Shown piece by piece: positions 7,816 through 64,000 of a DNA stretch of 64,000 nt. Within the stretch, counting starts at the first letter, position 1. Every line of letters starts with the position of its first letter. Origin of the DNA: Neocallimastix sp. 'constans' (Eukaryota); contig JBODTK010000100.1 in NCBI GenBank assembly GCA_050613775.1, forward strand, positions 496,001 to 560,000. Direction: 5' to 3'. The position numbers were made by a program, and so were the translations under genes. The notes beneath the pieces are model-generated. The model ran no database searches, was not told where the DNA came from, and saw only the letters and a list, made by a program, of their open reading frames with translations.

Positions 7816-7897
7816 CGTCACCTGCAGGACTCGAACCTGCGCTCCCAAAGGGAAATGGCTTAGCAGGCCACCGCGTTAACCACTCCGCCAAAATGAC
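7816..7897 (-). tRNA. tRNA-Ser (anticodon GCT), intronless
   Basis: GTCATTTTGGCGGAGTGGTTAACGCGGTGGCCTGCTAAGCCATTTCCCTTTGGGAGCGCAGGTTCGAGTCCTGCAGGTGACG: 82 nt, A box, long variable arm, GGTTCGAGTCC B box, oligo-T terminator downstream. Confidence 0.97.
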
Positions 7898-8530
7898 TTC
7901 TTGTTTTTTCTTTGATGCATGTCCAGTAAAAATAATAGAAAATAATAGAAAAATTATTTAGAAAAATTATTAATATAAATATTTATTAAAAATTAATTTT
8001 ATATAATGAATCTTAAAATATATTATTAATATATTATTAAAGATAATTTATTATTATTAATTATTAAAATATTAAATTAAATAATAATATTAAAAATATT
8101 AAAAGAATTGTTGATAATATAGTAAAATTAGTTATATTAATTATAACGGAGATTGAATGTTTAATTAAATTGATGTTAATATTAAAATAATTTTTAAATA
8201 ATGTTAAACAAGATGAATTAATAGTTATAAGTAAAAAGTTATGAATATTTATATTTATTAATTAATTTTAGTGTTTCGATAAATAAAATTTATAAAATTA
8301 GTAAAAAATATAATTATGAAAATAATTTATAAATAAATATTTTCTTTTTTTTTAAGGAATAATAATAAAACATGTATTTTTTTATGATAAAATATAATAA
8401 ATAAAATAATAAAAGATAAATAAATAAAAAGTAAATATAATTATTGTAATATAATATTCTTGGAGTAATTCCCTTTTGCACAAACGCCCAACTAACATAT
8501 ACGGTATTTAATAAAATATCGTATCAAAAA

Positions 8531-8547
8531 TGGTGGAGAATCCGGGC
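8531..8547 (+). promoter_or_regulatory. Primer binding site, tRNA-Ala type
   Basis: TGGTGGAGAATCCGGGC is complementary to ...GCCCGGATTCTCCACCA, typical of eukaryotic tRNA-Ala 3' ends. Confidence 0.8.
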
Positions 8548-8676
8548 GTGCAAACCAAGAATATTATGAAATTTATATTTATATTGATATTTACTTTTTA
8601 AAAAATAAAGACAATTAAATAATTAATATTAAATTAAAATTAAATAATTAATTTTTTTATAATAGTAATATATAAA

Positions 8677-8739
<63 letters not shown>

Positions 8740-9366
8740 GCCTAAAATTATTATGATTATTATTAAATAATAATTAAAGGTAACTGGGAGTTCGAACCAG
8801 AATAAAAACGAATAAGTCTTTAATTATTATTATTAGTATAGTTAATTTTTTTTTATTATCATCTTTATTAGTAATTAAAGACAACTGGGAATTCGGACCA
8901 GTATAAAAACGAATAAACCTTTAATTAAGAAATGATATTATAATAAAAAGTAGTAATAGTTTAGTATAAAAATTAATATTAAATAATATTTTATTAATAG
9001 TATATGTGATAATATTTAGAAAAAAAAAAAATAATAGATAATATTTTAATAATAATAATAAATAATATTTTAGTAATGGTGAATTAAGTAATAATTAATA
9101 ATAATAAATGATATTTTAGTAATAGTGAATTAAGTAATAATTAATAATAATAAATAATATTTTAGTAATAGTAATATTTTAGTAATAGTGTATAAAATAA
9201 GAATTAATAATAATAATAATAATAATTAAATGATATTTTAGTAATAGTGAATTAAGTAATAATTAATAATAATAAATAATATTTTAGTAATAGTGAATTA
9301 ATAATTAATAATAATAAATAATATTTTAATAATAGTAATATTTTAGTAATAGTATATAAAATAAGA

Positions 9367-9397
<31 letters not shown>

Positions 9398-9499
9398 GTA
9401 ATAATAATAACAATAATAATAACAATAATAAAAATAACATTATTATACTCGTAAAAGTATATAAGAATATAATTTCAAATTAAAATAATAATTAGATAA

Positions 9500-10804
9500 A
9501 TGGCGGACGCTTCGAAAATTAGAAGAGACTTACCATACTTAGCAAATTATGGTAAGGACATAGATTCTTGGATAGAAGATTTCAAAAATGTTATGGAAAT
9601 TTACAACATCGAGGAACCAAACAAAATTTTTATTTGGGTAAAGAACGCAGTAGAGGCTGACATAAAAAACCTTTTAAAATCTTTATGTACTACAAGAAAT
9701 AATGTTAAAAGGTTTCCCTCATATAAAGAAATCCAGAGAGCCATTGAAGATTATTTAGAAATTACTCAAAATGATAAGTGTTCAATTTTAAAGGCCTTAA
9801 AAATAAAAAGAAATGAAACAATTAAAGGATTTAATTATAATTATTTAACTCTTTATCATCGACTTGACTTGGAATATAAAAAATTAATATGTGTCGATGA
9901 TTATTTAAATGCTATACATGATAGGGTATATGTACATTCTCAAGTAATTTTGGCCAACTGTAAAACATTAACAGAAGCGTTCGAAGTAGCAGAACGTGCA
10001 GAAAAAGCTGAAGTACGAACTATAACAAACAAAAATTCTCAGAATGTTATGGTATATCAAAACAACATAAATAAAAATAATAACAATTTATTAAATCATC
10101 CAATTTATAGGAGCTTAAGAGAACATGGAAATAATTTAGATAATTCATATCAAGCGTCATCATATGTTATGGGTTATATAAATGAAAACTCCACCAATAA
10201 TAGAATGTTTACACCAGGTAGATATAGTAACAATAAAAATAAAAGTTTTAATAATAATAATAATTATTATCACGGAGTAGAACAAATTCAACAAAATAAT
10301 ACTTATGATACAAGAAGATTCTATAATAACTACGAACCAAAAGCTAGAAAATCAGTTATGTGTTACTCATGTAAACAAGTAGGACATAAAGCTTATGAAT
10401 GTCCTAATAATAAAAATAATGGTAGTAATAGAAATAATAATCTTTATAATATGAATAATAATGATATGGGTAATAATTATAATAATAATTTTGATTATAA
10501 TAATAATAGTAATAAATATAACAATTATTATAATAATAGTAATAAAAATGGCTACAATAATTCTTTTAATGGTAGTAATTATTACTTTAATAAAAATAAT
10601 AAATTTACTGGAAATAATATTGCTAATAGAAATAATCATAATTTTAATGAGAATAATATTCCCACTGGAAATAATAATTTTAATAGAAATTCTAATGGAA
10701 TAAATCAGGATATTAATACTACTAGTTCAAATATTAATAGTAATTTCAAAGCTAATGTAAATAATAATAATAATAATGGAGATAGCTTTAATAATTTAAA
10801 CTAA
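9500..10804 (+). CDS. gag: Gag, family I
   Basis: 434 aa; CCHC knuckle CYSCKQVGHKAYEC; Asn-rich C-terminus; ends at slippery site TTTAAAC. Confidence 0.92.
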   Translation: MADASKIRRDLPYLANYGKDIDSWIEDFKNVMEIYNIEEPNKIFIWVKNAVEADIKNLLKSLCTTRNNVKRFPSYKEIQRAIEDYLEITQNDKCSILKALKIKRNETIKGFNYNYLTLYHRLDLEYKKLICVDDYLNAIHDRVYVHSQVILANCKTLTEAFEVAERAEKAEVRTITNKNSQNVMVYQNNINKNNNNLLNHPIYRSLREHGNNLDNSYQASSYVMGYINENSTNNRMFTPGRYSNNKNKSFNNNNNYYHGVEQIQQNNTYDTRRFYNNYEPKARKSVMCYSCKQVGHKAYECPNNKNNGSNRNNNLYNMNNNDMGNNYNNNFDYNNNSNKYNNYYNNSNKNGYNNSFNGSNYYFNKNNKFTGNNIANRNNHNFNENNIPTGNNNFNRNSNGINQDINTTSSNINSNFKANVNNNNNNGDSFNNLN

Positions 10805-10966
10805 ATAATGGGAGAAGGACAACTCCCGTTAACCAAACCAAACTTCAAACTTATAATAAAAATAATAGTATTAATGAAGAATATGTAAATTTAACATACT
10901 CTCCCAAGTTAAATAATAATACTATGAAAATAAAAAATAATTATAATAATACTAATGATAATAATT

Positions 10967-10997
<31 letters not shown>

Positions 10998-13900
10998 ACA
11001 TAATAATAATAATAATAATAATAATTCATATAATGCTAGTGCAACTTCAAATAATGATGTAATAAATAATGGATATCCTTATAATGATAATTCACATAAT
11101 TATGATATAAACAATAATTATTTAAATAAGAATAATAAAATAAATTATACAAACAGTTTATTTGATGATAATCATACAAGTATTGATAATATTTATTCCA
11201 ATAATAATAATAATAATAACTTAAATAATATAGAATATCTTAGTAAGAATACTAGTAACGGTTATAAATTAAATAATAGTAATCATAACAACATCTATGA
11301 AAATGACACTATTAATAAACAAGTTAACAATGATGTTAATATAAATAATACTTATAAAAATAATAATGATGATCAAAGTAACAATGAAATTGATTTAAAT
11401 AGAATTTCTATAAATGATAATGAAAAGAAAATTAATAATGAACCTAATTCAAATAATATTTATAATAATTTTGATAATTACCATAATGAGGAAATTATCG
11501 CTGTTGCCCAAAAGAAAGGTAAAAATAATTCAATAAAAATCTCCCCATATACCAAAGAAATAAAGAAAAAGCTTATAGATAATCCAGTTCCAATTATTAC
11601 AAATGCTATGAAGAAAAATACTATTATGAAAAGAAAATTAAACGTTAATAAATTAGCAACTACAGGAACACCTGATATGATAATAGATGAGGGAGGAACG
11701 AATGTCAAACTATCAACAGAAAAAGAAGAAGGTAAAGAATTTAAAGAAAATAAAGATCATAAAAATGTTACTTTCAATGAATCTATTGAAATTTTTGAGG
11801 ATTCACAACCACCAACTAATCAAACAATAACTAATAATAATACAAATAAATTAGAATATTTGGATCTTTCTTATATCAATCAACCAAATATTAGAAATGT
11901 AAAAAAAGCGAATAAATTGAATAAAATAAATGAAATACTGAGCAGTAACAAAGATGATATACCCATCAATGTTAAAAGTTATTCCAAGCCAGAGAAACAC
12001 ATAAAAATGATGGAAGATTTTAATGAATTTAAAATTAAGGACTTTATCAAGGAAGTAGCATCAACCGAAGTCATAACGAAGTTAGTATATTTGTTAGACC
12101 TGTTTCCAAAGTTCAGGTCAGAATTTACAAAAGCATTAAAATTAACCGAAGGAAAAGAGAAAATAAAGAAAAATTTGAATACATCTTTAATAAATGTAAT
12201 GACAATTATAAGCCAACATAAAGTGATTAAAGTTAAAGGCACTGTGGATAAGAAACCAGCTGAAATTTTCTTGGACTCGTGTGCTAGCGTTAATTTGATT
12301 ACCACTACGGCTTTAAAAAAATTTAAAATTAATAAAAATCCTATTGGGAGAATATCCGAAAAAATTTTTCAGGTATATTCCAACAATTCAACTTGTTCAG
12401 ATATTTATGAACTAAAAATATCTATTGGAAATTACACTTTTATCGATTACTTTAGGAAAATTGATAAGGATGATATCTTTGATATATTAATAGGTATTGA
12501 CACACTTAAACGAAATAGATTTGATATAAATTTAGTTAATGATACCTTATATCATATTGATGAAAATAATAATCCTATAGAATTAGCTTCTTTATTTTAT
12601 GATGTTAGCTTGAGTCCTTCTGAAAGTACAAATAGAATTAATGACGAAGAAAATAATATGAATAAGGAGAATAATATAAATAATAATTCTTCTGAAGAGA
12701 ATGATGAGGATTCTGAAACTAGTTGGAGTGACAATGATAATAATAATGATAATAATAATATACTTTTTACATATGCTAAATCAGAGTTACCTAATATTAA
12801 CATAAATAATTTTAATGTAAAATTACCTTTCTTTAATAGTGTCGACATCGATAAAGAAAATAATATCAAAATAAAAACGAATAATAATAAGAATGATGAT
12901 AAAATTGACAATTATAAAATAAATGATCATAAAATTAATTCTAAAGTTACAAACAATATAAATCCCATACTACATTCTAAACTTCCATCAAAAATCGATT
13001 CTGATCAAAACGGCAATAACAAATTAAATAGTAATTATAAATTAGTAGATAGAAATATTGAAAGGAAAGAATATAAGAATAAAACGGTTGATATTACAAC
13101 ACAATTGATTCCATCTCTTTTATTAATAACTAATGAAGTACTACATAATGAAAACGAGGTTTGCACAGACGACACAATATCTAAACTGGAAATGATTCAC
13201 TCTATTGTAAAAAAATTACCAGAAAATTTGAAAGCTGATGTAGAAAAATTATTTTTAAATTATATTAGTGTTCTTGCACTGAAAACTGACGATTTGGGTT
13301 CGTCAAAGCTATATCCTCATAGAATTAATTTAATACCAGGAACAACACCTATTAAACAGAGGGCCTACCGTATTTCAAAAGTGCAAGCTGATGCACTTAA
13401 AAAGGAATTAATTAAACTTATAAATAATAACTTAATTGTCCCTTCTAGTTCTCCTTGGTCTTCTCCTGTAGTACTGGTACCGAAAAAGAATGGTCAAGTG
13501 AGAATGTGTGTTGACTACAGGAAGATTAATAATTGTACATTAAAGGACGCTTATGCACTTCCTTTAATAGATGATATACTTTACTATGTTAGCGGTGATA
13601 TTTCTATTTTGTCTACTATTGATCTCTTCTCAGGGTACCATCAGATTCCTATGCATTCTGATGATAAAGATATCACTTGCTTTACGACCATTTACGGAAA
13701 CTTTAATTTTGAAGTTATGCCTTTTGGACTATGCAACGCTCCCGCTACTTTTCAAAGGGAGATGAACAGAATATTTTTTGATTTAATCGGAGTATGTGTT
13801 TTTATTTACATAGATGACTTAGTTATTTATTCTCCTTCATTAGATCAACACATCAAAGACCTAGAAAAAGTATTCCTCATTCTTGCTAATAATGGATTAA

Positions 13901-16279
13901 AAGTGAATTTTGAAAAATGTGATTTCTTTAAAGAAGAAGTTGAGCTCCTTGGTCATACTCTTTCTACTAAGGGTATAAAACCTATGAATTCTAAAATAAA
14001 AGTTATTGCTAATTGGTTACCTCCTTCTAATTTAAAACAGTTACGTTCTTTCTTAGGGGCAATTGGATATTACCGGAAATTCATTAGCCATTTTGCCCAA
14101 ATTGCTAAACCTTTATATGATTTAACAAAAAAGAATGTTCCTTTTGTTTGGTCTACCGAATCTAATAATGCATTTGAATTTTTAAAAATTCGTCTTATTA
14201 ATGCACCTATATTGTCACCTCCAAATTTTGATAAACCATTTATTGTTCGTTCAGATGCATCTAAATCAGGAATTGGCGGGGTACTACTTCAGTTAGACGA
14301 TGACAACATTGAGAAGCCATTATATTATGAAAGTAGGACACTTTCCAATTCTGAAATCAATTATAGCATTACAGAACTTGAGGGGCTTGCCGCATTTTAC
14401 TGTGTCATGAAATTTAAACCTTTTCTCACTGGTAATAGTTTTGAGACAATTCTTTATACCGATCATAAGCCTTTAGTTTACATATTTAAAAATAAAGAAC
14501 CTTCTTCAGCAAGGCATGTCAAATGGATAACTGAGTTCAGTATTTTAAAAATTAAAGTGTTATATGAAGAGGGGAGGAGGAATGTAGTTGCTGATGCACT
14601 ATCTAGATTACATTCTAACAATGAAAAATATATAATCAAAAATATAAAAAATGATGATAAACATATAAAAAATAAAAATAAAAGAAATAATATAAAAAAT
14701 TATAATAAAGATGTATTCAACCAAGTTATAAATAATGAAATTCAAAATTGTGAAATTAAAAATAATGAAGAAATTAGAAATAAGAAAAATACTAAAATTA
14801 ATAAAATAAAAGAGTTAGTGGATGAAATTAAGATCAATAGTAATAATGAAAATTACAAAATGGAATATGAGGAAATTAAAAATAATGTAAATAACATTAA
14901 TAAGTTTAATAAGTTTAATAATAAATTACATAATAATAATAGTGAAAATAATGGAGTGGAAAATAAATTGAATGTGAATTATATGGTATTTCAAACTGAA
15001 GAAAATAATAAACATAGTTTTAATAATAATGATAATAATAATAATAATATTAATCATGTTAATACTAATAATAATGATATTGATGATAGTACTGAAATAC
15101 TAAATGATTTCTATAAAAAAATAATAAACCAGAAATTTGTATTAATTGATGGAGTTCAGTATTATAAAGATAATAATGAATTAAGAAAAGTAATATTTAA
15201 TGATAATGAAAAATGGGAACTTATTAGTAAAGCTCATTGTTTAGGACATGAAGGTAACTTTAAAACCTACCATCGTTTGAAAAGGAACTATTATTGGATA
15301 GGAATGAATAAGGATATCAGATTATTTATTAAATCTTGTCATGTATGTCAATTATGTAAACCACAACCACCGAATGTATTTACAGAAGATTTAGCTACAC
15401 CCCCAGGTCTACCTTTTACTCGGGTAGGATTGGATTTAGTTGGACCCTTATACGAATCTTTCAGAGGTAATAAATATATAATAGTACTTGTAGATTATTT
15501 AACAAAATGGGTGGAAGCTGAAGCATTAGCCAAAACAGAATCAGAAGATGTCATTAGATTTTTAAATAATATATTTTCAAGACACGGGATTCCAGAGATA
15601 TTAATTACTGATAATGGCCCGCAATTCATATCTGATAAAACAAAAGCTTTCCTAGATTTAAATGATGTCTATGTACATTATATTAGTACTTATCATCCTG
15701 CTTCTAACGGAGAAGTTGAAAACAGGAATAGAGAAATAGTCAAATATATTAGAATTCTTAAAAGCCAATTTAAAGAATTAAGTAAACAAAATCAAGAATG
15801 GGATGATATTTTACCTAGTGCACTTTGGGCTTTAAGAACAACAAAAAATGAAGTTACTAAATTTAGTAGTTTCGAATTACTCTATGGTAGGAAAGACTTA
15901 CAACCATTTGAATTAGCAATTAATATTGACAAAAGATTTCCTGAAGAATCAGAAGAAGAATATTTTGTTCGAAAATTTATTAATCACCATAATTGGATTT
16001 CTGAAGCAATCAAAAATATTGAAACTGCAAATGAATTATGGAAAGATAGGAGAAGACAGATTAAAAGATTAAGAAGTGAATTCAAACCAGGAGACCTAGT
16101 TTTAGTTAGAAATTTCAATCGAAGGAAACTAGACCCTTATTATATCGGACCATTAAAAATAGTTAAACAGCAATTTAATACTGTCACAGTATGCGATCCT
16201 TATACGAACGAAATTGCAGAGAGAAACATTCATCTAAAAAATGTAATTCCATATATTAGTAATTTCCTAAATTATAATC

Positions 16280-16284
<5 letters not shown>
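10795..16284 (+). CDS. pol: Pol (protease-RT-RNaseH-integrase), family I, reached by -1 frameshift
   Basis: Frame is open from the slippery site through the ORF 10924-16284; FLDSCASVNLI, YIDD, TDHKPL, DLVGP/TDNGPQF, GPLKI; Gypsy domain order. Confidence 0.95.
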
Positions 16285-16347
<63 letters not shown>

Positions 16348-17137
16348 ATGATATATATATAAAAAAAAAAAAAAAAAAAATTTTGATATATATAAAAAAT
16401 ATAAAAAAAAATATATAAAAAAAATATTATAAAATATATAATAGTATTATTAGTTTAATAAATATTTTAATATGCTTATAGACTTCAAGGGACGAAGTCT
16501 AAGCTAAGTGGGGGCATCTTGATGCATGTCCAGTAAAAATAATAGAAAATAATAGAAAAATTATTTAGAAAAATTATTAATATAAATATTTATTAAAAAT
16601 TAATTTTATATAATGAATCTTAAAATATATTATTAATATATTATTAAAGATAATTTATTATTATTAATTATTAAAATATTAAATTAAATAATAATATTAA
16701 AAATATTAAAAGAATTGTTGATAATATAGTAAAATTAGTTATATTAATTATAACGGAGATTGAATGTTTAATTAAATTGATGTTAATATTAAAATAATTT
16801 TTAAATAATGTTAAACAATATGAATTAATAGTTATAAGTAAAAAGTTATGAATATTTATATTTATTAATTAATTTTAGTGTTTCGATAAATAAAATTTAT
16901 AAAATTAGTAAAAAATATAATTATGAAAATAATTTATAAATAAATATTTTCTTTTTTTTTAAGGAATAATAATAAAACATGTATTTTTTTATGATAAAAT
17001 ATAATAAATAAAATAATAAAAGATAAATAAATAAAAAGTAAATATAATTATTGTAATATAATATTCTTGGAGTAATTCCCTTTTGCACAAACGCCCAACT
17101 AACATATACGGTATTTAATAAAATATCGTATCATCTT

Positions 17138-18185
17138 TGATAAAGAATGAAGTAATAAATTGATTCTTATTAAAAACCGTTTAATATAGTCAAGGTGATT
17201 TTTAAAATATTAATAAATTTATGTATTCTTTACATTAATAATTTTACTATATTATTTGATCTGAAAATTTAAGTTTATACATAAAATTTAATTTAAATTT
17301 ATGTTCATTCCTTATAAAGGTAAATTAAATTTATGAGAGTTTAGCAATAACATAGTACTAATTACTTTTAGTATTATTTTTCTAAATAAGGAATAATTCC
17401 TGTATATAAACAACTTAAATAACTTTATCAATATTTCTGTCTTTCGAATTAAGAAATAATTGAAATGAAAGAAATAAATAAAATAAAATTTTCTGTATTT
17501 AAAATTGTAAAAGATTTTTCATATATTAATAAATGTATTTTATTTTCTATTATGTCATTCAAATTAATATATAAGATTACATATTAAATTAGTATCAAAA
17601 TTAAGTTAAAGTATTCAATTTTATTGTAATACTGCTTCTCTTTTTTTTTGTTTAATTCTTATCTATAATGCATCTTTTATATTATAGATTTATTTTGGTT
17701 AATTTGAATATTAGGAAATAATAAAATTTCTATTTATTACAATAAGGAAATAATCAATAAGATTTAAAAATCTATTGTTTTTCCATCTCTTCAACTACTT
17801 CCAGAGGCTTTGCTACTTTTATATCTTCAAAAAGATATAAATTGACTACCTTGGAACCCCTTTTTAGGGGAGAGAAAAAAATAAGAAAATAAAAATAGAA
17901 AAAAAAAATAAATAAATAAAAATAAATAAATAAAAATAAAAATAAATAAAAATAATAATAAAAATAAAATAAAAATAAAATAAATAAAAATAAAATAAAT
18001 AAATAGAAATAAAATAAATAAATAAAAATAAAATAAATAAATAAAAATAATAATAAAAATAAAATAAAAATTAAAATAAAAAAAATATAATAAATAAATA
18101 AAAATTATTGTGAAAGAAATAAAATTTTTTTTTGTGTTTTAATATTATATAATTTTTTTTTTTTTGAATTCCTCGAACCATAACA
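17138..18185 (+). mobile_element. Solo LTR family H (TGATAAAGAATG...GAACCATAACA)
   Basis: TCTT/TCTT flanks; same 3' end as family E LTRs; second (truncated) copy at 59235. Confidence 0.88.
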
Positions 18186-18191
18186 TCTTTG

Positions 18192-19190
18192 TGTAAGAAT
18201 CTATAATTATTTTTAACAAAATAATTATATTTTCTTAGTTAGGTTATAATTAATATAACTTTTATTTAACTCATATTTCATTTATACAATTAATTATAAT
18301 TAATAATTTATTTAATTATATATTAAAATTTTATTTAGTTTAATATTAAAAATTTATTTAATCAAATAATTTTTATACATTTAAAATAATATTAAATTTA
18401 TTTAATTATTCACTTAATTATTAAATTTATTAGTTTTAGTTTTCTCTCACTTATTAAATCATAAACTAAAACACTATTCTGTATTTTATCATGTATTCTG
18501 TATTCTATCATGTATTCTGTATTGTATTAATCATGTATTTTATTATTAATGTATTGTTTTATATTTTTTATGTAAAGTTCTATAAAATAGAACTAAATAG
18601 ATTAAATTTTAAATTTTATGATCGAAATAATTTTCATTATTTTATTCTTTTATTTTCGATCATTATATTAGATTAAGTAATCGGTTAATTAAGGTTTTTC
18701 CAATTACTTCTTAAAAGTAATCGGTTTTACTTAATTAACGCGATGATCGATATGGATAGAATATCGATCAAAAAACTTATCTAGGTTTTTCTTCTAGTCT
18801 TTTCCTAGATAAGAGATTTGTTAAGATTAGAACCCCTTTTGATTTTAACCTTATTTTGACAAAAAAGTATAAATAAGGCTCTTGAGTTCTCTTTGAGAAA
18901 TCAAGAGTTATTATTATAACAATTATAATATAATAATAATGACAATAAGTTTTAACATTTAAAATTTTTAATAAATAATAAAACAAATTATTTTAATAAA
19001 ACAAATTTTATAATTAAAACTTTTCCTTATCAATTTTAGTGTTTCGTCTATTATAATTCGTTATAATAAACTCGATAATTAGAAAGAACCATAGGTAAGT
19101 ATGATTCTTTTCTAAACCTTTAATATTAGCAGTTAGAACTAATATTAATGATTAATAATTTAATTATAATTTTTTAATTAAATTATTACA
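18192..19190 (+). mobile_element. Solo LTR family D
   Basis: Inverted near-copy of 4720-5752; flanks CTTTG/ATTTG. Confidence 0.92.
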
Positions 19191-52372: not shown

Positions 52373-53217
52373 CTACAACTTAACGACTAATTCATTAAGT
52401 TGAGAAAATAAAATAAAATAAATTTTTTTTTTTTTTTTTTTACCAAAGGAGTTTATTATAAAATTAATTATAATAATAACACAAAAAGCAAAAGAATTGT
52501 TTGTATAAATTTGATTTTAAAAATATGATTTTTGAATAAAATATTTTATTAATTTATTAAAGTTAAAAATATAAAATTGTTACTATTATAACTATGTTTT
52601 TATAATAATAACTCTTGATTTCTCAAAGAGAATTCAAGAGCCTTATTTATATTTTTTTATGAAAATAAGGTTAAATAAGAAAGGGTTTTCTAATCTTAAC
52701 AAATCTCTTATCTAGGAAAAGATTAGATAGAAAAATCTAGATAAGTTTTCGATCGATATTCTATCCATATCGGTCATCGCATTAATTAAGTAAAACCGAT
52801 TACTTCTAAAAGTAATTGGGAAAAATCTTAATTAACCGATTTTTCAATCTAATCTAATGATCCAAAATAAAAGAATAAAATAATAAAAGATATTTCGAAC
52901 ATATAATTTATCCTTATATTAAAAATATAAAATTAAATAGTTAATAAAATACAGAATACATTATAAAATACAGAATACATTATAAAATACAGAATACAAT
53001 ACAATACAGAATACATTAGTTACAGTAGAGAATTTAACATATTGTAAATATATTATCTAAAATTAATTAAATATTTTGTTAAATTAATGAATATTTAAAA
53101 TTAAATTAAATAAATTTAATAAATATTATATGTAATTAAATAAAGTTATAGTTATAATAACTTAACTAAGAAAATATAATTATTTGTTAGCAAATAATTA
53201 TAGATTCTTACATTTTG

Positions 53218-54118
53218 TGTAATAATTCTATTAAGAACTAACACAAAATAGAATTATTGACTACAACTTAACGACTAATTCATTAAGTTGAGAAAATAAA
53301 ATAAAATAATTTTTTTTTTTTTTACCTTTAGAGTTTATTATAAAATTAATTATAATAATAACACGAGAAGTAAAAGAAGAATTATTTGTATAAATTTGAT
53401 TTTAAAAATATGTTTTTGAATAAAATATTTTATTAATTTATTAAAGTTAAAAATATAAAATTGTTACTATTATAACTATGTTTTTATAATAATAACTCTT
53501 GATTTCTCAGAGAGAATTCAAGAGCCTTATTTATATTTTTTTATGAAAATAAGGTTAAATAAGAAAGGGTTTTCTAATCTTAACAAATCTCTTATCTAGG
53601 AAAAGATTAGATAGAAAAATCTAGATAAGTTTTCGATCGATATTCTATCCATTTCGATCATCGCATTAATTAAGTAAAACCGATTACTTCTAAAAGTAAT
53701 TGGGAAAAATCTTAACCGATTTTTCAATCTAATCTAATGATCGAAAATAAAAGAATAAAATAATAAAGATATTTCGATCATATAATTTATCCTTATATTA
53801 AAAATATAAAATTAAATAGTTAATAAAATACAGAATACATTATAAAATACAGAATACATTATAAAATACAGAATACATTATAAAATACAGAATGCAATAC
53901 AATACAGAATACATTAGTTACAGTAGAGAATTTAACATATTGTAAATATATTATTTAAAATTAATTAAATAAATTTTGTTAAATTAATGAATATTTAAAA
54001 TTAAATTAAATAAATTTAATAAATATTATATGTAATTAAATAAAGTTATAGTTATAATAACTTAACTAAGAAAATATAATTATTTGTTAGCAAATAATTA
54101 TAATTATAGATTCTTACA
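53218..54118 (-). mobile_element. Solo LTR family B
   Basis: TTTTG/TTTTG flanks. Confidence 0.93.
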
Positions 54119-54121: not shown

Positions 54122-54584
54122 TGATACGTAACCACTATAAATATGATATTTAGGTAGATTCTTTAGGTTAAAGAAATACTTAAATATTATTGGTCAGCAA
54201 TAATTTTATAACAATATATAATTTTATAATAATAATTATTAAACGGAGAATTCTTTTTTTATAAGTTTATACTTATGATAAATTAATTCACATAAATAGC
54301 TATTTTTATATTTTATTTTAGTATAGTTAAAAAGAGATATTATATATATTTGAGATAATTAATTATAATATTTATATAAGAGAGTAATAATAATAATTGA
54401 TGTAATAATTAATAATTAATAATAAATAAAGAGTACATTAAAAAGATATATTTATTACTTTATTTTGTATCATTGTATGTGTTATCTCTATTTAATATTA
54501 GAATATATTATTTTGTCATAATTCCTTATTGTCATTGCCCATAAATAAATATTAATTTAGATACATAAATAAAATATCGTATCA
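54122..54584 (+). mobile_element. Solo LTR family J
   Basis: Reverse complement of 5759-6222. Confidence 0.92.
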
Positions 54585-54589: not shown

Positions 54590-55557
54590 TGGTAAAGAAT
54601 GAATTAATAACCTTTATTTTATTATTAATAATTCTTTACTAAATTGTACTTTCCTATATTCTTGATAACCTAAACTTAATAATAAAATTTAATTTATTTT
54701 GATATAAATTAATTTTAACTTGTAAATAATGTAAATCAATTTTAATTAATTACTTTATTGTTATATTATTAAATATATGTATATATTAAAATACAATTGT
54801 AAATATTAAAATTATACTTTTAAGATACTAAATTATTAAAATTATTAATTAAATAATATTATAAAAATTATTATAAACTATTAATATTATAAAATTATTA
54901 AAATTATTAAATATTATTATAAAAATTTATTTATTATAACTATTATATATTATTATAAAATTATTAAGATTATTAATTAAATTTATTATTAAAAATTATT
55001 ATTAAAAATTATTAATTATTATAAAAATTTATTATCTAAATATTATCAAATTTATTAATTAAATATTATAACAATTTTATTTTATTTTTGAAAAAAATTA
55101 CAAGTATTATTTAAAATAATTAAAGATTATTAAATTTATTATATTAATCTTTAAAAATAATTTATTTAACTTAAAAATATCAAAGAAAATAGTAAAAACT
55201 ATTTTCTATATATTTATTTTATAATTATTTTTAATTAAATTATATTTGAATATTATATTATCATATTTATAAAAATTAAAACAAAAATGAATTATTGATA
55301 TAAAATTAATTCAATAATTCTATAAAATTACTTAAATTATAAACAAATAATTATACTTTAAATTTATAAAAAAATATAAATATTGTAAATATTTCTTAAA
55401 AATTAAATGTATGTACTTCAAAAATAAATTTTAATATTAATAAATAATAAATAAATTTTAATAAAAAGAAATTTTTTATTAATTTAAAATCAAAGCAGGG
55501 TAATACCCGCCCCCCTGCTTGATTTTAAATCTATACGTGTTAACCCCGAGTCTACCA
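54590..55557 (+). mobile_element. Solo LTR family A
   Basis: Matches 2218-3226; TTTT/TTTT. Confidence 0.93.
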
Positions 55558-55561: not shown

Positions 55562-57594
55562 TGATAAAGAATGAACAAATAATCTCATTATTTTAGTTGG
55601 AATTGTATTTTCTGTCACGAAACTAGTGGATTTGAAGTTAAAATTCACTATTAGATCAATTGAAATTTAATTTAGTTATTGACAAAAAATTATTTTAATT
55701 CGATTTTAATTATAAAAATAAATATTAGAAACATTAAAGAATTAGAAACCAAAGGGTTTGGACTTATTTATTAAAGATAATTTAATTTAATTTAACCCTT
55801 AAGAATTTGATAAAAATAACATGAAGATAAAACAACGATAACTCAACAAATAATGGAAATATTATATTGATATTCCCGCTAAAATTATATTCATTGGAAA
55901 GTTACGGTCGAGAACTACAACATATGTTAAAATCAACCTTATTTGACAACTGGATAACGAGATATTGGACTTTAAAGATATTTAAATATAAAAATATAAT
56001 TTAATTATTTAAGATCCTAAATTATTAAGAAATTTATACTAGATAAATCTCTTAACTTGGAAATTATATTATTAATTTTTATTATTAATTAAAAATACAG
56101 AATTAGTTATTAGTAATACTTTTATAATATATTAAATAAGTTTTATAAGTTTTATATATTTTATTATTATATATTTTATTCAATTATTTCTAAAAGATTC
56201 TAAGGAATTCTTTATCATTCTAAAGATTTCCGAAAGAGAATTTTTAATTAGTTTTAATATTTTATTTTATTTTATTTTATATTTTATTATTAAATTAGTT
56301 TTATTATTAAATTGTTTTATGAATAAGTTATATAGTTATTTTATTAAAAGATTCTTATCAATATTATTTTATTATTATATTTTATATAGTTTATATACAT
56401 GTATGAATATATTAAGGTTAAAATGCATTAATTAATTATATTGTTAATTATTATTTTAGTTTAGTATAAAAAGGATTTGAAATTCCATATTTTGAATTCT
56501 TTGCAAGATTACTAACCTTTAACCTTTAATAATTTACTTCAAACTATTAACATAAAGTTAATAAATTAATTATAACAATAAATAAATTTTTATATTAATC
56601 TTAGTTAAAATTTATTATTAAAATATATATTAAATAAAGTTCTAATAAAACATAAATCTTAAATATTGAAATCTTAATTATAAAACTCTGTGTGTGTTAT
56701 TTATTATTTAAATTTAATTAATTGTTATAATTAATAAAAACATCTTGACCTGACCAATTTAACTTAAATTAGGAAAGATATAGCAAGAATCTTACCACCT
56801 ACCTCAAAAACCTTTACATTTTCTTACCTAACCACTCAAATAAATTATTTTATTCTTCAATACTTTGGAACTTTCCTATATTCTATGATTAAATTTTATT
56901 ATTAATATTTTATTATTAAATTTTTATATATTATTAATATCAAATTAAAGATGAAAAATTATTATTAATATTCAATTATTTTATTAATATTAATGTATTA
57001 TCAATATTACTTTATTATTAATATTAATTATATAGTTATATCAATATTATTAATATTTTATATTTTCTAAAATATATTATTTATTATAATTTCTAAAAAT
57101 CAATTCAATTAATTACTAAATTTTATATTGATAATTTAACATATTTTTTTGGTAATTTTTAATTACTAAAAACTTACTAAACCACACTTAAAAATTCTGT
57201 ATAAATTTTATATTTTTCTTTTATATATATTATTAATTTTAAATAATAATAAATATTTTATAATTAAATAATATATAACTATTATTTATTAGAAATAAAT
57301 AATAATTATATTAATAATTTAAAATCAATTTAAAACATTATTTTAGTAATTAGTTAGAAATATTTAGAAAATATTTTAGATAGGCTTAACAAATTTTAAA
57401 TGTAAAAAAAAATATAAATACATGTAATTCTAAAATAACTTTTTAAGAAGATAGGAATTAAAAAAACATTTTTTTTTAATTTTTTAATTTGAAATAATTT
57501 TAATAAAAATTATATAAAGCAAATATTTATTTATTTATTTAATTCATTGAAGTGTTAAAATATTATAATCCAAAAATTGTTACGAACCGTAACA
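55562..57594 (+). mobile_element. Solo LTR family R (TGATAAAGAATG...GAACCGTAACA) with nested insertion
   Basis: TTTT/TTTT flanks; relative at 62844. Confidence 0.85.
55613..56818. mobile_element. Nested class 3 solo LTR (family Z)
   Basis: TGTCACGAA...TTTACA; TSD TTTTC/TTTTC. Confidence 0.88.
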
Positions 57595-57598: not shown

Positions 57599-58413
57599 TG
57601 ATAAGAATGTACTAAATAATGCATTCTTAATTAAATCTACGATTTATTTTTAATACATTATGCGTACATTATTATTTTTGTACTTTAATAAATTTTTAAA
57701 TTCAAAGATTAAAAATTAAATCAAAAATTATATTAAACTTTATATTTTTATATTAAATCTTATATTAATAGTAATATTTTTATATATTTAAAACTTATAT
57801 TAGCAATATTAATAATAAATCTTACCTTTTTATTTTTATATTAATAATTAAAATTTGTATTAATAATATTTTTATATATTGATAATTAAAATTTTATATA
57901 TTATATTTTAACTTTTATTATAAAATTTTATATCGAAATGTTTTATTTTATATTGAAAAATATTTTATTTTATTAAAAACCATTATATTAGAATAGTATT
58001 TTTATTTTTATTTGAATGTTTTAACAGATTTTAATAATAATTATAGCCAATTAAATAAATTCTTATTAGTAATATTTTAGATAGATTATTAAAAAAAAAA
58101 AAAAAATGTTTTATTAATATAATAAATGTATTTTATCTATATTGTTATAATAAAATTATATATAATTGATTATAAAAATCAATTTAAATTAAATAGTTTT
58201 TATAAAAAAAAAAAAAAAAAAAAATAAAATGTAATTTAGTGGCAAGAACAACTTTTATGCCTTGAAAAAAAGTATAAATAGTTGTAAATTTTGCTACCAA
58301 TTATTAAAAACAATCAATCAATTAATAAAATAAATAAATAAAATAATAAATAAATAAACAAAATCTGTGTTTCTTTTACTTTTATTTTTATTTAATTCTC
58401 TAAAACCTTAACA
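57599..58413 (+). mobile_element. Solo LTR family S (TGATAAGAATG...ACCTTAACA)
   Basis: Class 1-like termini, TTTT/TTTT flanks; single copy in the window. Confidence 0.72.
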
Positions 58414-59234: not shown

Positions 59235-60101
59235 TGATAAAGAATGAAGTAATAAATTGATTCTTATTAAAAACCTTTTAATATATGTTAAGATAATAAT
59301 TGAATTTCCATTTAATTCGATTTCAATTTCAATTTCAATAATTCAGTTATTTGAATTTCAATATTAATAATTAATAATATAATAATTATTATTAAAATAT
59401 TTAGGAAATAGTCTAGGCCAACTAATTACTAAATATTATTAACATATTGAAATTAATATATATTAAATAATGTAAACACGTGATTGTCATTAAATTAATT
59501 TCTACATATTATATTTTAATTATAAAAATATTTAGCAAATATTATATTCTTATATTTTATTTATATTAAATATTTATATTATTATCTTAGTTTATATTAT
59601 CAATATCAAACTTATATTAATACTATTACATATTCATATTAATAATTAGTATTTTGATAATTAATTATTTTATATAAATACATGTTTAAATCTTTTGATT
59701 AATCCTTTGTAGGATTATTGTAATTTAAATTATAGTAATAATTATATAAAATAATAATGTAATAAAATATTATTAAGATTAAATAAAATTTATATTTTAA
59801 ATAAAAACTTGATTATAAAATTTACTAATAACAATATGTTTTAAACAAGAGTAAATTTAAATTATTAAAAAATTACTATAATTTGGCATCTTGACCTAAT
59901 CGTTAAGACCAAATTATCTAAAAACTTTAACAATATAGTCAATGTGATTTTTAAAATATTAATAAATTTATGTATTCTTTACATTAATAATTTTACTATA
60001 TTATTTGATCTGAAAATTTAAGTTTATACATAAAATTTAATTTAAATTTATGTTCATTCCTTATAAAGGTAAATTAAATTTATGAGAGTCTATCAACAAC
60101 A
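59235..60101 (+). mobile_element. Truncated solo LTR family H with nested insertion
   Basis: Matches 17138 to about 17351 once the nested LTR is removed. Confidence 0.85.
59286..59932. mobile_element. Nested class 3 solo LTR (family Y)
   Basis: TGTTAAGATA...TTTAACA; TSD ATATA/ATATA. Confidence 0.88.
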
Positions 60102-60107: not shown

Positions 60108-61578
60108 TGTAATAATTCTATTAAGAACTAACTCAAAATAGAATTATTAACTATATGTCAAAGTTTTAAGATAATTTGGTCTTAACGATTAGGTCAAGAT
60201 GCCAAATTATAGTAATTAATTAATAATTTAATTTTACTCTTATTTTAAACATATTATTATTAGTAAATTTTATAAATAAGTTTTTATTTATAATATAAGT
60301 TTTATTCAATATTAATAATATTTTATTACATTATTATTTTATATAATTATTACTATAATTTAAATTACAATAATCCTACAAAGGATTAATCAAAAGATTT
60401 AAACATGTATTTATATAAAATAATTAATTATTAATATGAATATGTAATAGTATTAATATAAGTTTGATATTGATAATATAAAATAAGATAATAATATAAA
60501 TATTTAATATAAATAAAATATAAGAATATAATATTAGCTAAATATTATATTTTATAATTAAAATATAATATGTAGAAATTAATTTAATGACAATCACGTG
60601 TTTACATTATTTAATATATATTAATTTCAATATGTTAATAATATTTCGTAATTAGTTGGCCTAGACTAATTCCTAAATATTTTAATAAAGTTAATTTAAT
60701 AATAATTATTATATATTATTATTCATTAATATTGAAATTTAAATAACTGAATTATTGAAATTGAAATTGAATTGAAATTCAGTTATTATCTTAACACTAC
60801 AACTTAACGACTAATTCATTAAGTTGAGAAAATAAAATAAGATAAATTTTTTTACCTTTAGAGTTTATTATAAAATTAATTATAATAATAACACGAGAAG
60901 TAAGAGAAGAATTATTTGTATAAATTTGATTTTAAAATATGTTTTTTGAATAAAATATTTTATTAATTTATTAAAGTTAAAAATATAAAATTGTTACTAT
61001 TATAACTATGTTTTTATAATAATAACTCTTGATTTCTCAGAGAGAACTCAAGAGCCTTATTTATATTTTTTTATGAAAATAAGGTTAAATAAGAAAGGGT
61101 TTTCTAATCTTAAAAAATCTCTTATCTAGGAAAAGATTAGATAGAAAAACCTAGATAAGTTTTCGATCGATATTCTATCCATATCGGTCATCGCATTAAT
61201 TAAGTAAAACCGATTACTTCTAAAAGTAATTGGGAAAAATCTTAACCGATTTTTCAATCTAATCTAATGATCGAAAATAAAAGAATAAAATAATAAAGAT
61301 ATTTCGATCATATAATTTATCCTTATATAAAAAATATAAAATTAAATAGTTAATAAAATACAGAATACATTATAAAATACAGAATACATTAGTTACAGTA
61401 GAGAAATTAATATATTGTAAATATATTATTTAAAATTAAATAAATTTTGTTAAATTAATGAATATTTAAAAATAAATTTAATGAATAAATATTATATGTA
61501 ATTAAATAAAGTTATAGTTATAATAACTTAACTAAGAAAATATAATTATTTGTTAGCAAATAATTATAGATTCTTACA
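60108..61578 (-). mobile_element. Solo LTR family B with nested insertion
   Basis: TTTTG/TTTTG flanks. Confidence 0.9.
60156..60796. mobile_element. Nested class 3 solo LTR (family Y, inverted relative to 51003)
   Basis: TGTCAAAG...ATCTTAACA; TSD CTATA/CTACA. Confidence 0.88.
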
Positions 61579-61581
61579 TTT

Positions 61582-62166
61582 TGATACCTGACGTATAAAA
61601 ATATTATACTTTAATGAAATATTATAGTTAAATTTTATATAAAAATATTATTGGTCAATTAATAATTTATAATTATATATATTTTTAAAAAATTATTTAT
61701 TTAATAAGGGGATTCTTTGATTTATAATAAAATAATAAGAGAAATGTAGAATCCAAAAATTAGTTTATTAGAATAGAGATATAATTAATAATAATTAAAT
61801 ATATAAATATACTGGTGAAATGTATATTTAATATGTATATTTAAAAACTAGTTATGAATAGTTTATAATTGTAATAATATTAAATAATAATATTAAGAGT
61901 TTATAATTATATTTAATATAACATAATTTATAATAATTATATAATAATATAACATAATGTATAATAATTATATAATAAAATAAATAAAGAAGGAATAATA
62001 AAACAAATAATAAAATAAAACATTTTAGTATAAAATTATATTATTTTCGTGTCATTATATATTTATCAGAATATATTATTTTGTTATCATTCCCTACTGT
62101 TATACTGTCATTCCTAAATAAAAATAAAATATTTAGATACTGGTATTTTATAAATATCACGTATCA
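61582..62166 (+). mobile_element. Solo LTR family U (TGATACC...CGTATCA)
   Basis: Termini and 3' motifs related to family J. Confidence 0.8.
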
Positions 62167-62171
62167 TTTTT

Positions 62172-62839
62172 TGTAAGAATATAGATTTATTTCTTATAAA
62201 ATAATCTATCTTCTTATTTAATTAATTCATATTTCATTTATATTTCAATATTTATTAACATATAAAAAATATGTTAATTTATCCAAATTAATATATTGAA
62301 AAATAATGAAAACAAATTTGTTGTAATGTATTCATTACTTAAAAATATTATTTATATTTTATTATTTCAATTAGTTGATAATTTATAAGATTTTAGTAAT
62401 CGGTTAATTAATTTTTTCCCCAATATTATTATGATTGGGTTTTTATTAATTAATACGATGATTAATATATTAGAATATTAATCGAAGTTATTCAGGTTTT
62501 TCTACTAATCTTTTCCTGAATATCAATTTGTTAAGATTAGATACCTTTATTTCATTGCTAACTTTATCTTATCTATTTCATTTATTTAATAATTACATCT
62601 ATTTAATAATTTCATCTATTAAAATAATTATAAATAAAAAAGTATAAAACAACTCAAATTTCTTTGATTAAAGAAATTAGAGTTATTATTATATAATAAA
62701 TTAAAAGAAATAAAGTCTTTTTGTTTATATCTATATTTAGTGTTTATAATAAACTCTATATAAAGTTAAGTATAAATTTTTATATTTAAAAATATTAATA
62801 ATCTAGTTATAGTTAGTATATTATAAATAGATTATTACA
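62172..62839 (+). mobile_element. Solo LTR family F
   Basis: Inverted copy of 35300-35977; TTTTT/TTTTT. Confidence 0.9.
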
Positions 62840-62843
62840 TTTT

Positions 62844-63634
62844 TAATACAGAATGAACAAATAATACTAATTGTGCTAGAATAATATAAATTATTCTAAC
62901 CTTATAGATTATTCTATTCTATATAATTGGAACTTTCCAATATTCTTCAAATATTACTAAATAGAAATCTTAAGTTAATAAATCACCAATTAACTTATAA
63001 TTCCTTTTTGAATTATCGATCCGATTCCATTATAATGTATTAAAAATCTTTAGCCAAGAATATTGTCCTTGCCCACTTAATATATTAATATTTTATTTCT
63101 TTTGTAATATGTTATATTGAAAATAATCAAATCTATTTAATTAGTTATTAAAATTTTCATTATCAATTTAAATCTATTTTTAATTACTAAATTTAACTAA
63201 ACCACAATAAAATATTCTGTATAATCTCTTTATTTTTATTTTATATATATTAATATTAAACTATTATTAAATAATTAATAATTCAATAATATATAACTAT
63301 TATTTATAACAATAATATTATTAACTAAAATAATAATTCAATTTCAATTTAAATGTTTCATTTATAAAAATAATTAGTAATTAGTTTATTAAAAAAATAG
63401 TTAGGCTTTACAAATTTTAATTTGATAAAAAAATATAAATACATGTAATCTTTAGTGAAATAAAATATAATCAATAACTTACTTTTATTAAATAAATAAT
63501 TATATTATTATTATTATTTTTCTCTTATTAAATTTAAATAAATATTGATTTTAAAACAAATTATTTTTTTTTATTGTAATTTTATTATTTGTGTTAATTA
63601 TTATTATATTCCTAAAACTATATGAACCATACCA
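62844..63634 (+). mobile_element. Solo LTR, family R-like, decayed 5' TG
   Basis: TAATACAGAATGAACAAAT...GAACCATACCA. Confidence 0.78.
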
Positions 63635-63640
63635 TTTTCT

Positions 63641-64000
63641 TGTAATAATTTAATTATAAGATTAATTATAATTAAATTATTAATTGCAACTTAATAATAA
63701 CTTAATAAAAATTATTATTAAATTGAGACAAATATAAAAAAGTTTTATACTTATCTTAATATTGGGAGTTTATTATAACTAATTATAATAAACAATTAGC
63801 AAAAGTAACACAGATTTGTTGTAAGAAGAATATTTTATTTTTATATTTTATTTTTTATTTTAAAATTTATTTTTATTAATAACTATCTTTATCTAAAAAA
63901 AAATATAAATATTTAATATTGTTATTATGTTTGATATATAATAATTGTTATATTATAATCGTTATAATAATAACTCTTGATTTCTCAAAGAGAACTCAAG
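63641..64000 (-). mobile_element. LTR, family K-like, runs off the window
   Basis: TGTAATAATTTAATT start; ATAATAACTCTTGATTTCTCAAAGAG motif. Confidence 0.85.

What the first reader, a model, noticed from the sequence alone, without database searches (positions are those of the whole stretch)
7816..64000. tRNA-anchored 'conveyor belt': 30 LTR elements stacked end to end from a site 15 nt upstream of a tRNA gene
Seen: the first LTR starts at 7913, 15 nt upstream of the mature 5' end of tRNA-Ser. From there to the window end I count 30 consecutive units from many families. Each ...CA end is separated from the next TG... start by only 3-7 nt (TCTT, TCTTTG, ATT, TATTTG, ATTTG, ATAT, TTTTG, TTTT), and no unique host DNA lies between them for 56 kb. 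Known: yeast Ty3 and Dictyostelium DGLT-A insert close upstream of tRNA genes. Inference: every newcomer lands at the same Pol III-defined position, duplicates 4-5 bp and pushes earlier elements outward. The result is a polarised, time-ordered record of invasions, analogous to CRISPR spacer acquisition. I do not know of a described multi-family stack of this size and precision. Caveat: the distal part may have been built at another tRNA and joined by recombination (see the family D finding).
Basis: partly seen in the sequence, partly recalled or inferred. Interest (0 to 1): 0.93.

Follow-up and report, generated by a model that had tools for sequence, protein, structure and literature searches.

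The report
Ordered retrotransposon stack at tRNA gene
In what is likely an anaerobic gut fungus, about 32 retrotransposon copies of many families sit end to end, a few bases apart, starting 15 bases in front of a tRNA gene, and their junction scars point one way, so the pile likely records in order the repeated landings of at least three kinds of element at tRNA genes.

Summary
The stack is real. From 7913, 15 nt upstream of tRNA-Ser(GCT), to the window end lie 32 LTR units of about 22 families; the 29 scored spacers are 3-7 nt.

Growth is one-sided. Target-site duplications fit for 25 of 29 units (shuffle maximum 18). Eleven spacers end in the copied TG of the next LTR; none begins with CA. 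All 13 units of one lineage point away from the tRNA. Six copies of one LTR family diverge in positional order.

New here: seven nested solo LTRs sit 48-51 nt from the tRNA-side end of six hosts, likely a second slot 63-66 nt upstream. Two Gypsy lineages with 27-33% Pol identity share the first slot; one is self-priming-like and lacks its relatives' chromodomain.

It is not one clean record: five places are recombined, deleted or mismatched, and more stack lies left of the tRNA. Only one tRNA locus could be examined; no genome or spanning reads. The scan noted a two-element case at 16 nt in another genome. Verdict: new variant of Ty3/DGLT-A-like targeting.

The parts
7816..7897 (-). tRNA-Ser(GCT) gene with A box, B box and T-run terminator; the anchor of the stack
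7898..7912 (.). 15-nt gap between mature tRNA 5' end and first LTR; last 4 nt (TCTT) are unit 1's left duplication
7913..17133 (+). Unit 1: full-length lineage-A Ty3/Gypsy element; LTRs 7913-8526 and 16520-17133 (1 substitution in 614), tRNA-type primer site, gag 9500-10804 (CCHC), pol 10795-16284; duplication TCTT
17138..18185 (+). Unit 2: lineage-A solo LTR; duplication TCTT
18192..19190 (+). Unit 3: lineage-B (B2) solo LTR with mismatched flanks CTTTG/ATTTG; likely recombination joint with the inverted copy at 4720-5752
19194..28191 (+). Unit 4: full-length lineage-A element (LTRs 2 substitutions in 833; pol split at 24397/24398); left duplication clipped to ATT, right TATT
28198..35294 (-). 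Unit 5: full-length lineage-B (B1) element; single ORF 29111-33190, leader complementary over 12 nt to its own LTR, no chromodomain; duplication ATTTG
35300..35977 (-). Unit 6: lineage-B (B4) solo LTR; duplication ATTTG
35981..38709 (+). Unit 7: lineage-A non-autonomous element with truncated gag and two different LTRs (20% apart); chimera
38713..39666 (+). Unit 8: B1 solo LTR
39673..40634 (+). Unit 9: B3 solo LTR; shares a 697-nt identical inverted stretch with unit 11
40639..41185 (+). Unit 10: lineage-A solo LTR; duplication ATAT
41192..42153 (-). Unit 11: B3 solo LTR with mismatched flanks TATTG/TTTTG
42157..43943 (+). Unit 12: lineage-A solo LTR carrying a nested LTR
42208..42946 (.). Nested X2-family solo LTR, 51 nt into unit 12, duplication AACTT
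43949..44333 (.). Unit 13: deletion chimera of a B2 start and a B5 end; flanks do not match
44341..45296 (-). Unit 14: lineage-B solo LTR
45304..46191 (+). Unit 15: B1 solo LTR
46196..50108 (.). Units 16-18, rearranged block: B5 LTR 46196-47890, unmatched 47891-49211, inverted B5 LTR 49212-49685 with a B-type leader on one side and a polypurine tract on the other, B remnant 49686-50108
46246..47466 (.). Nested Y-family solo LTR, 50 nt into unit 16, duplication TTATT
50114..50948 (+). Unit 19: lineage-B solo LTR (strand from terminal resemblance); duplication TTTTG
50954..53212 (-). Unit 20: B1 solo LTR carrying two nested LTRs
51003..52372 (.). Two nested solo LTRs in series (X1 51003-51658, duplication TACAT; X2 51663-52372, duplication CTACA), 49 and 48 nt into unit 20
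53218..54118 (-). Unit 21: B1 solo LTR
54122..54584 (+). Unit 22: lineage-A solo LTR, 98% identical to the 3' LTR at 5759-6222
54590..55557 (+). Unit 23: lineage-A solo LTR, same family as the 3' LTR at 2218-3226
55562..57594 (+). Unit 24: lineage-A solo LTR carrying a nested LTR
55613..56818 (.). Nested Y-family solo LTR, 51 nt into unit 24, duplication TTTTC
57599..58413 (+). Unit 25: lineage-A solo LTR, 86% identical to the 3' LTR of the element in L001
58420..59231 (-). Unit 26: lineage-B solo LTR; duplication TTTTG
59235..60101 (+). Unit 27: short LTR of unit 2's family carrying a nested LTR
59286..59932 (.). Nested X1-family solo LTR, 51 nt into unit 27, duplication ATATA
60108..61578 (-). 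Unit 28: B1 solo LTR carrying a nested LTR
60156..60796 (.). Nested X1-family solo LTR in the opposite orientation, 48 nt into unit 28, flanks CTATA/CTACA (4 of 5)
61582..62166 (+). Unit 29: lineage-A solo LTR (strand from terminal resemblance)
62172..62839 (+). Unit 30: B4 solo LTR
62844..63634 (+). Unit 31: lineage-A solo LTR starting TA, 98% identical to the 3' LTR start in L002
63641..64000 (-). Unit 32: lineage-B LTR, cut by the window end
1..5752 (.). Separate stack left of the tRNA: 3' part of a lineage-A element (pol to 2194, LTR 2218-3226, +), B1 3232-4140, A 4145-4714 (+), B2 4720-5752; spacers ATATT, ATAT, ATATT
5753..7360 (-). Reverse-polarity remnant: spacer reading TATTTG on the minus strand, lineage-A 3' LTR 5759-6222, polypurine tract, C-terminal gag; 5' part lost

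Best explanation
This is a one-sided stack of about 32 LTR-retrotransposon units that begins 15 nt upstream of a tRNA gene, likely built by repeated integration at a spot set by the RNA polymerase III factors on a tRNA gene and likely spliced together from more than one such locus. Shown by the sequence: two Ty3/Gypsy lineages share the first slot. Lineage A (tRNA-type primer site, CCHC gag, 4-bp duplication) always points away from the tRNA. Lineage B (self-priming-like leader, no chromodomain, 5-bp duplication) lies in both orientations and usually cuts 1 nt further out, copying the TG of the previous LTR. A third group (X1, X2, Y; solo LTRs only, 5-bp duplication) sits 48-51 nt inside the tRNA-side end of its host. 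Inferred: because the tRNA promoter is internal, TFIIIC/TFIIIB would reassemble after each insertion and present the same site, so each newcomer lands between the gene and the previous element. The third group would land just beyond TFIIIB, 63-66 nt upstream, while its host was the nearest unit. LTR-LTR recombination would reduce most elements to solo LTRs. Recombination between related LTRs and deletions would join stacks from different tRNA loci, likely at unit 3 and possibly at units 7, 11, 13 and 16-18.
For: 15-nt distance to an intact tRNA gene. Exact duplications for 25 of 29 units under tRNA-side growth, 20 of 29 under the reverse; six units fit only the first, one only the second; shuffle maximum 18. 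Eleven of 29 spacers end in TG or TGT, 0 of 29 begin with CA. Spacer length follows the class pair: A|A 4-5, A|B 6 in 6 of 9, B|A 3 in 6 of 8, B|B 5 in 4 of 8. All 13 A units are on +; seven are anchored by primer site, polypurine tract or a homologous element, six by terminal resemblance. The one A unit on the minus strand (5759-6222) has the one reversed spacer. Seven of seven nested LTRs lie at +48 to +51 from the left end of six hosts of 220-1048 nt, six with exact 5-bp duplications. Six B1 copies: distance rises with positional separation, rho 0.69 and 0.81, reached by 10 and 6 of 720 orders. Mosaic: unit 3's right flank ATTTG matches the far flank TATTTG of its inverted sister copy at 4720-5752, not its own left flank. 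A 4-nt A-to-A junction not present in this window appears in two contigs of run X10. Known distances: DGLT-A 13-33 nt, D. lacteum DGLT-A 55-65 nt (PMC5006619), Ty3 via TFIIIB.
Against: Only one tRNA locus was seen. No genome is held, and no fetched locus of this lineage held a tRNA (L001 and L002 scanned; pattern scans 23, 27, 29, 30 empty). Four of 29 units fail the duplication test (3, 11, 13, 15). Both integrases end without the chromodomain that positions Ty3, so the tether is unidentified. The paired-LTR age gradient (1/614, 2/833, 3/880 substitutions) is too small to count, and a multiple alignment gives 11 differing columns for unit 5, eight in one gap-ambiguous patch. Distal spacers are T-rich, which makes matches easier. 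The start of unit 16 was placed by reading CG as a mutated TG. The mismatches at units 3 and 11 are single bases and could be point mutations. No read spans any junction.
Confidence: 0.62

Rival explanations
1. Strict single-locus record: all 32 units were added at this tRNA-Ser, and the change in spacer sequence (TTTT to ATAT/TATT to TCTT) reflects point mutations in the 15-nt upstream gap.
For: Polarity, A-lineage orientation and B1 ordering run unbroken across the suspected joints. The mismatches at units 3 and 11 are single bases at what aligns as the same position of the gap.
Against: The inferred middle-period gap end (TATATT) differs from today's (TTTCTT) at 2 of 6 positions while unit 4's LTRs differ by only 0.24%. 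The inverted B2 copy at 4720-5752 carries the reciprocal flank. Units 7, 13 and 16-18 are recombined or deleted regardless.
Confidence: 0.2
2. The elements target LTR ends or an anchor other than a tRNA gene (for example a factor bound at LTR termini or a chromatin boundary), and the tRNA is adjacent by chance or matters only for units 1-2.
For: One tRNA locus only; the stack at 1-5752 has no tRNA inside the window; distal units cannot be tied to this tRNA.
Against: An LTR-end preference would act on both ends, yet footprints are 11 to 0 and nested insertions are measured from the left end in 7 of 7 cases, in hosts of different family and orientation. The 15-nt distance equals the DGLT-A/Ty3 distance.
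Confidence: 0.12
3. Assembly concatenation or unequal recombination strung repeats together without serial insertion.
For: AT-rich, repeat-dense DNA with very long homopolymers; no spanning reads; local rearrangements exist.
Against: About 22 different families abut exactly at their termini with duplications that interlock from unit to unit. Sister copies differ by 0.7-3%. Recombination gives shared LTRs, not terminus-to-terminus junctions with duplications (bioRxiv 10.1101/158386). A junction of the same kind occurs in an independent run.
Confidence: 0.04

Closest known systems
Ty3 of Saccharomyces cerevisiae
   Same: Ty3/Gypsy order of domains; insertion in a narrow window upstream of a tRNA gene; 5-bp duplication as in lineage B; Ty3 Gag-Pol (7Q5B) is the best solved match of the B integrase (E 2.6e-45).
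   Different: Ty3 has two full-length copies in S288C and uses a C-terminal chromodomain on TFIIIB. Here both integrases stop before that region, lineage A duplicates 4 bp, and about 22 families are stacked over 56 kb.
DGLT-A of dictyostelids
   Same: 13-33 nt upstream of mature tRNA, no chromodomain although relatives (Skipper) have one; D. lacteum DGLT-A.1/.2 sit 55-65 nt upstream, like the second slot here (PMC5006619).
   Different: 7-32 copies per family per genome; no long multi-family stack in the passages read; the two distances occur in different species, whereas here both act on one stack.
Tj1 of Schizosaccharomyces japonicus
   Same: Self-priming Tf1-like element, 5-bp duplication, upstream of tRNA genes, fixed orientation (PMC4600332).
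   Different: Tj1 runs in the same direction as the tRNA gene. Here the self-priming-like lineage B takes both orientations and the fixed lineage A runs opposite to the tRNA gene.
Double-insertion tandems (R1, P-element dimers) and Drosophila telomeric retrotransposon arrays
   Same: Consecutive insertions at one site leave the target duplication between elements; telomeric arrays grow from one end (bioRxiv 10.1101/158386).
   Different: Those are mostly one-family dimers or non-LTR elements; the anchor is a sequence or a chromosome end, not a Pol III gene.
CRISPR arrays and integron cassette arrays (recalled, no call)
   Same: Newest unit at the anchored end, so position encodes order.
   Different: No host-encoded acquisition enzyme, no constant repeat and no shown function; each unit brings its own integrase.

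Membership tests
Ty3/Gypsy LTR retrotransposons | PR-RT-RH-IN order in pol | tested here: met
   Pfam scan of units 1, 4 and 5
Ty3/Gypsy LTR retrotransposons | Direct LTRs, primer site, polypurine tract, target-site duplication | tested here: met
Pol III gene-targeting LTR elements (Ty3, DGLT-A, Tj1 type) | Element end 10-33 nt upstream of a mature tRNA 5' end | tested here: met
   15 nt at the one tRNA in the window
Pol III gene-targeting LTR elements (Ty3, DGLT-A, Tj1 type) | The same distance at many tRNA genes across the genome | not testable with these tools
   No genome held; collection scans gave no tRNA-bearing locus
Pol III gene-targeting LTR elements (Ty3, DGLT-A, Tj1 type) | Integrase tethered by TFIIIB/TFIIIC; targeting lost with a dead promoter | not testable with these tools
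   needs an experiment
Ty3 proper | C-terminal integrase chromodomain contacting TFIIIB | tested here: not met
   B integrase aligns to Ty3 only up to residue 1447 of 1547 and ends 8 residues later; no chromodomain hit in A or B
Tf1/sushi self-priming chromoviruses (lineage B) | Leader complementary to a segment inside the LTR in place of a tRNA primer site | tested here: met
   12-nt complement starting at the first leader base; the transcript start itself was not mapped
Tf1/sushi self-priming chromoviruses (lineage B) | Chromodomain at the integrase C-terminus | tested here: not met
   16 of 16 close relatives reaching the C-terminus have tails of 10 aa or less; 89 of 94 more distant ones have 60 aa or more, most with PF00385
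DGLT-A | Single ORF, no chromodomain, DGLT-A primer-site sequence, dictyostelid clade | tested here: inconclusive
   No chromodomain is shared; lineage A has two ORFs and a different primer site, lineage B a self-priming-like leader; no tree with DGLT-A was built
Ty1/Copia (second-slot X1, X2, Y) | IN before RT in pol | not testable with these tools
   only solo LTRs are present

The most novel reading that the evidence does not exclude
In anaerobic gut fungi, at least three unrelated LTR lineages divide the Pol III initiation site into two fixed slots (15-17 nt and 63-66 nt upstream) without a chromodomain tether. Many tRNA genes then carry their own ordered invasion log tens of kilobases long, readable from junction footprints, and these logs make up a large share of the repeat content of these genomes.
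Probability: 0.45. Interest if true: 0.86.

Novelty: new variant of a known kind. Interest (0 to 1): 0.76.

Why it matters
Insertion order in transposon clusters usually has to be guessed from divergence. Here position, junction footprints and nested insertions give the order directly, so family turnover, solo-LTR formation and LTR substitution rates become testable at single loci. It would add Neocallimastigomycota as another case of Pol III targeting, with two distant Gypsy lineages and a third group at one site, a fixed orientation opposite to Tj1's, and no chromodomain, which points to a different tether from Ty3's. Unit 1 has open gag and pol frames and near-identical LTRs, so it is a candidate site-specific integration tool for fungi that lack genetic tools. 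Nine literature searches listed no paper describing such a stack or tRNA targeting in these fungi; the library lacks most subscription journals.

Tried and rejected
No whole genome is held, so the tRNA-distance histogram could not be made. Exact-pattern scans for the tRNA (viral contigs; metagenome contigs) and for a lineage-B LTR motif (genome contigs; viral contigs) found nothing. The integrase search found nothing in viral contigs, 2 loci in metagenomes from a scan that read 15 of 64 parts, and 19 loci in prokaryote genomes, of which one (L003, 58%) is close. L001 and L002 hold no tRNA; L003-L021 were not scanned for tRNAs. Contigs of 4 of 24 listed runs were laid on 5400-8380 only: no piece spans the stretch, 7600-7699 has no cover and only 24 of over 2000 loose ends are shown, so this neither confirms nor refutes the locus, and junctions beyond 8380 are untested by reads. 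The paired-LTR age gradient is too weak to use. The exact-repeat listing missed unit 1's LTR pair, so it was not used as an assembly check. The B1 tree has one well-supported branch of five; the permutation test was used instead, leaving out the copy at 3232 because it lies outside the array. An inversion of unit 10 between units 9 and 11 was rejected because the flanks would not pair. The idea that the tRNA lies inside a retroelement was rejected: no minus-strand lineage-A primer site lies next to an LTR in the window. The Copia-like look of 7358-7531 is recalled from its motif; Pfam and PDB gave no hit. Look-ups of earlier findings by place and sequence were empty.

Full report
Host and setting. 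The window has 11-34% G+C. The unit-1 integrase has dozens of relatives at 44-100% identity, one named from an Orpinomyces genome, and the DNA is held by faecal metagenome runs and by runs under coded organism labels. The host is therefore inferred to be an anaerobic gut fungus (Neocallimastigomycota). No whole genome is held.

The observation. One tRNA gene is present, Ser(GCT) at 7816-7897 on the minus strand, with A box, B box and terminator. The first LTR begins at 7913, 15 nt upstream. From self-BLAST and junction reading I count 32 first-tier units to the window end: three full-length elements, one non-autonomous element, solo LTRs, and a rearranged block. One search scored 30 rows (units 16-18 merged) and 29 spacers of 3-7 nt; the rows cover 55,952 of 56,088 bases. 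About 22 first-tier LTR families are present, counted by eye from the BLAST matches. Two solo units are confirmed as LTRs from outside: unit 25 matches the 3' LTR in L001 and unit 31 that in L002.

Two lineages in the first slot. Lineage A (13 units) has TGAT/TGGT-type starts, a CCHC gag, a primer site that I read as tRNA-Ala-like (recalled, not tested) and 4-bp duplications. Lineage B has TGTAA...TTACA ends, one ORF, 5-bp duplications and a leader complementary over 12 nt to its own LTR, as in the self-priming Tf1 and Tj1 (PMC4600332, abstract and passages). A and B share 33% identity over RT-RH and 27% over integrase. B's close relatives lack a C-terminal tail (16 of 16 at 10 aa or less), while 89 of 94 more distant ones have 60 aa or more; by my count 77 of the 99 hits P0192-P0290 carry the chromodomain family PF00385 and 0 of the top 18 do. 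B is thus likely a chromovirus branch that lost the domain.

Polarity from junctions. If each newcomer lands on the tRNA side of the previous one, its right flank keeps a whole duplication, its left flank may be clipped, and a cut that reaches into the old LTR copies its TG. With lengths of 4 (A) and 5 (B), chosen after reading the junctions, 25 of 29 units fit exactly; the reverse polarity fits 20. Six units fit only the forward model and one only the reverse. Permuting right flanks gives 7.7-8.6 on average and at most 18 (20,000 shuffles for each of two nulls). Eleven of 29 spacers end in TG or TGT and none begins with CA. All 13 A units lie on +, pointing away from the tRNA; seven are anchored by primer site, polypurine tract or a homologous element, six by terminal resemblance. 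B units take both orientations. The single minus-strand A unit, left of the tRNA, has the single reversed spacer.

A second slot. Seven further solo LTRs of three families (X1, X2, Y) are nested inside units. All start 48-51 nt from the left end of their host, in six hosts of 220-1048 nt from both lineages and both orientations; six have exact 5-bp duplications and one matches at 4 of 5. A rough uniform-placement figure for six hosts sharing one 5-nt window is 5e-11. The target sequences differ, so the position is set from outside, on the left. The simplest reading is that each host was the nearest unit to a tRNA gene when it was hit, 63-66 nt upstream of the mature 5' end. D. lacteum DGLT-A.1 and .2 use 63-64 and 55-65 nt (PMC5006619, passages including Table 1). 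This is the strongest evidence that distal units once stood at the anchored end.

Order in time. Among six B1 copies along the array, sequence distance grows with positional separation (rho 0.69 or 0.81, depending on which unit-5 LTR is used; 10 and 6 of 720 orders reach this). From one unit-5 LTR the distances are 0.75, 3.2, 3.3, 4.5 and 5.7%. Paired LTRs differ by 1/614, 2/833 and 3/880 substitutions for units 1, 4 and 5, in the right order but too few to count.

Where the record is broken. Only units 1-2 carry today's upstream sequence TCTT. Unit 3 has flanks CTTTG and ATTTG; its inverted sister copy at 4720-5752 (0.7% apart) has TATTTG on its far side, the missing partner. An inversion between the two would explain one of their two mismatches, so units 4 onward were likely built at another tRNA gene, since lost. 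Unit 7 has two LTRs 20% apart, unit 11 has a one-base mismatch, unit 13 is a deletion chimera, and 46196-50108 holds two inverted B5 LTRs around 1.3 kb with no good match in the window. The first 6.2 kb is another stack with no tRNA in view. A single locus with point mutations in the gap is not excluded.

Outside evidence is thin. Collection scans gave no locus with a tRNA. Contigs laid on 5400-8380 do not span the locus, but two contigs of run X10 show a unit-4-type LTR end joined through four bases to a unit-1-type LTR start, a junction absent from this window. An earlier AI note (e1-8067551) describes two LTR elements in series 16 nt upstream of tRNA-Leu in another probable gut fungus; I could not check it.

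Mechanism. Shown: anatomy, one-sided footprints, fixed offsets, orientation. Inferred: internal promoter elements let TFIIIC and TFIIIB reassemble after each insertion, as for Ty3, which integrates 1-4 nt upstream of the start site through TFIIIB (PMC5911963, passages; bioRxiv 10.1101/2021.07.27.453949, passages). A and B would cut at the start-site edge of TFIIIB and X/Y beyond its far edge. The tether is unknown because neither integrase has the Ty3 chromodomain. Solo-LTR collapse and inter-LTR recombination would give the present mosaic.

Novelty. Targeting upstream of tRNA genes and double insertion at one site are known (bioRxiv 10.1101/158386, passages). Nine searches (listings only unless named above) showed no description of a long multi-family polarised LTR stack at a Pol III gene, or of such targeting in gut fungi; one gut-fungus genome paper read in passages (PMC6883316) has no occurrence of 'retrotransposon'. 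No supplements were read, and genome papers in subscription journals may mention this. I file it as a new variant of a known kind, interest 0.76.

Noticed in passing
window 7358-7531 (-): A 58-codon stretch with a motif recalling a Ty1/Copia integrase start is fused in frame to the C-terminal part of a Gypsy gag at about 7360, a deletion joint; Pfam and PDB gave no hit.
   Followed up: partly
window 39723-40419 and 41406-42102: Units 9 and 11 share a 697-nt identical inverted stretch while differing near their ends, suggesting gene conversion.
   Followed up: partly
window 49200-49700: A B5 LTR has a B-type leader on one side and a polypurine tract on the other, as in the shared middle LTR of a tandem element.
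   Followed up: partly
L003, last 780 bases: An LTR follows a polypurine tract and is itself followed by a primer site, a three-LTR tandem or circle-derived form; the contig is filed under a bacterial MAG but looks fungal.
   Followed up: no
window 62844 and 51663: Two LTRs start with TA in place of TG; L002 shows the same TA start directly after its polypurine tract.
   Followed up: partly
window 28480-28503 and equivalents in most B LTRs: A conserved inverted repeat sits immediately before the segment that pairs with the leader, possibly part of the self-priming structure or start site.
   Followed up: no
window 20100-20760: The leader of unit 4 holds G+C-richer patches, one conserved at 75% in L001; no Rfam match at gathering scores.
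   Followed up: no
window 7898-7920: Read on the tRNA strand, the LTR's terminal CA followed by the A-rich duplication gives a CAA context about 15 nt upstream, which each new insertion would re-create; its role as a start site is a guess.
   Followed up: no
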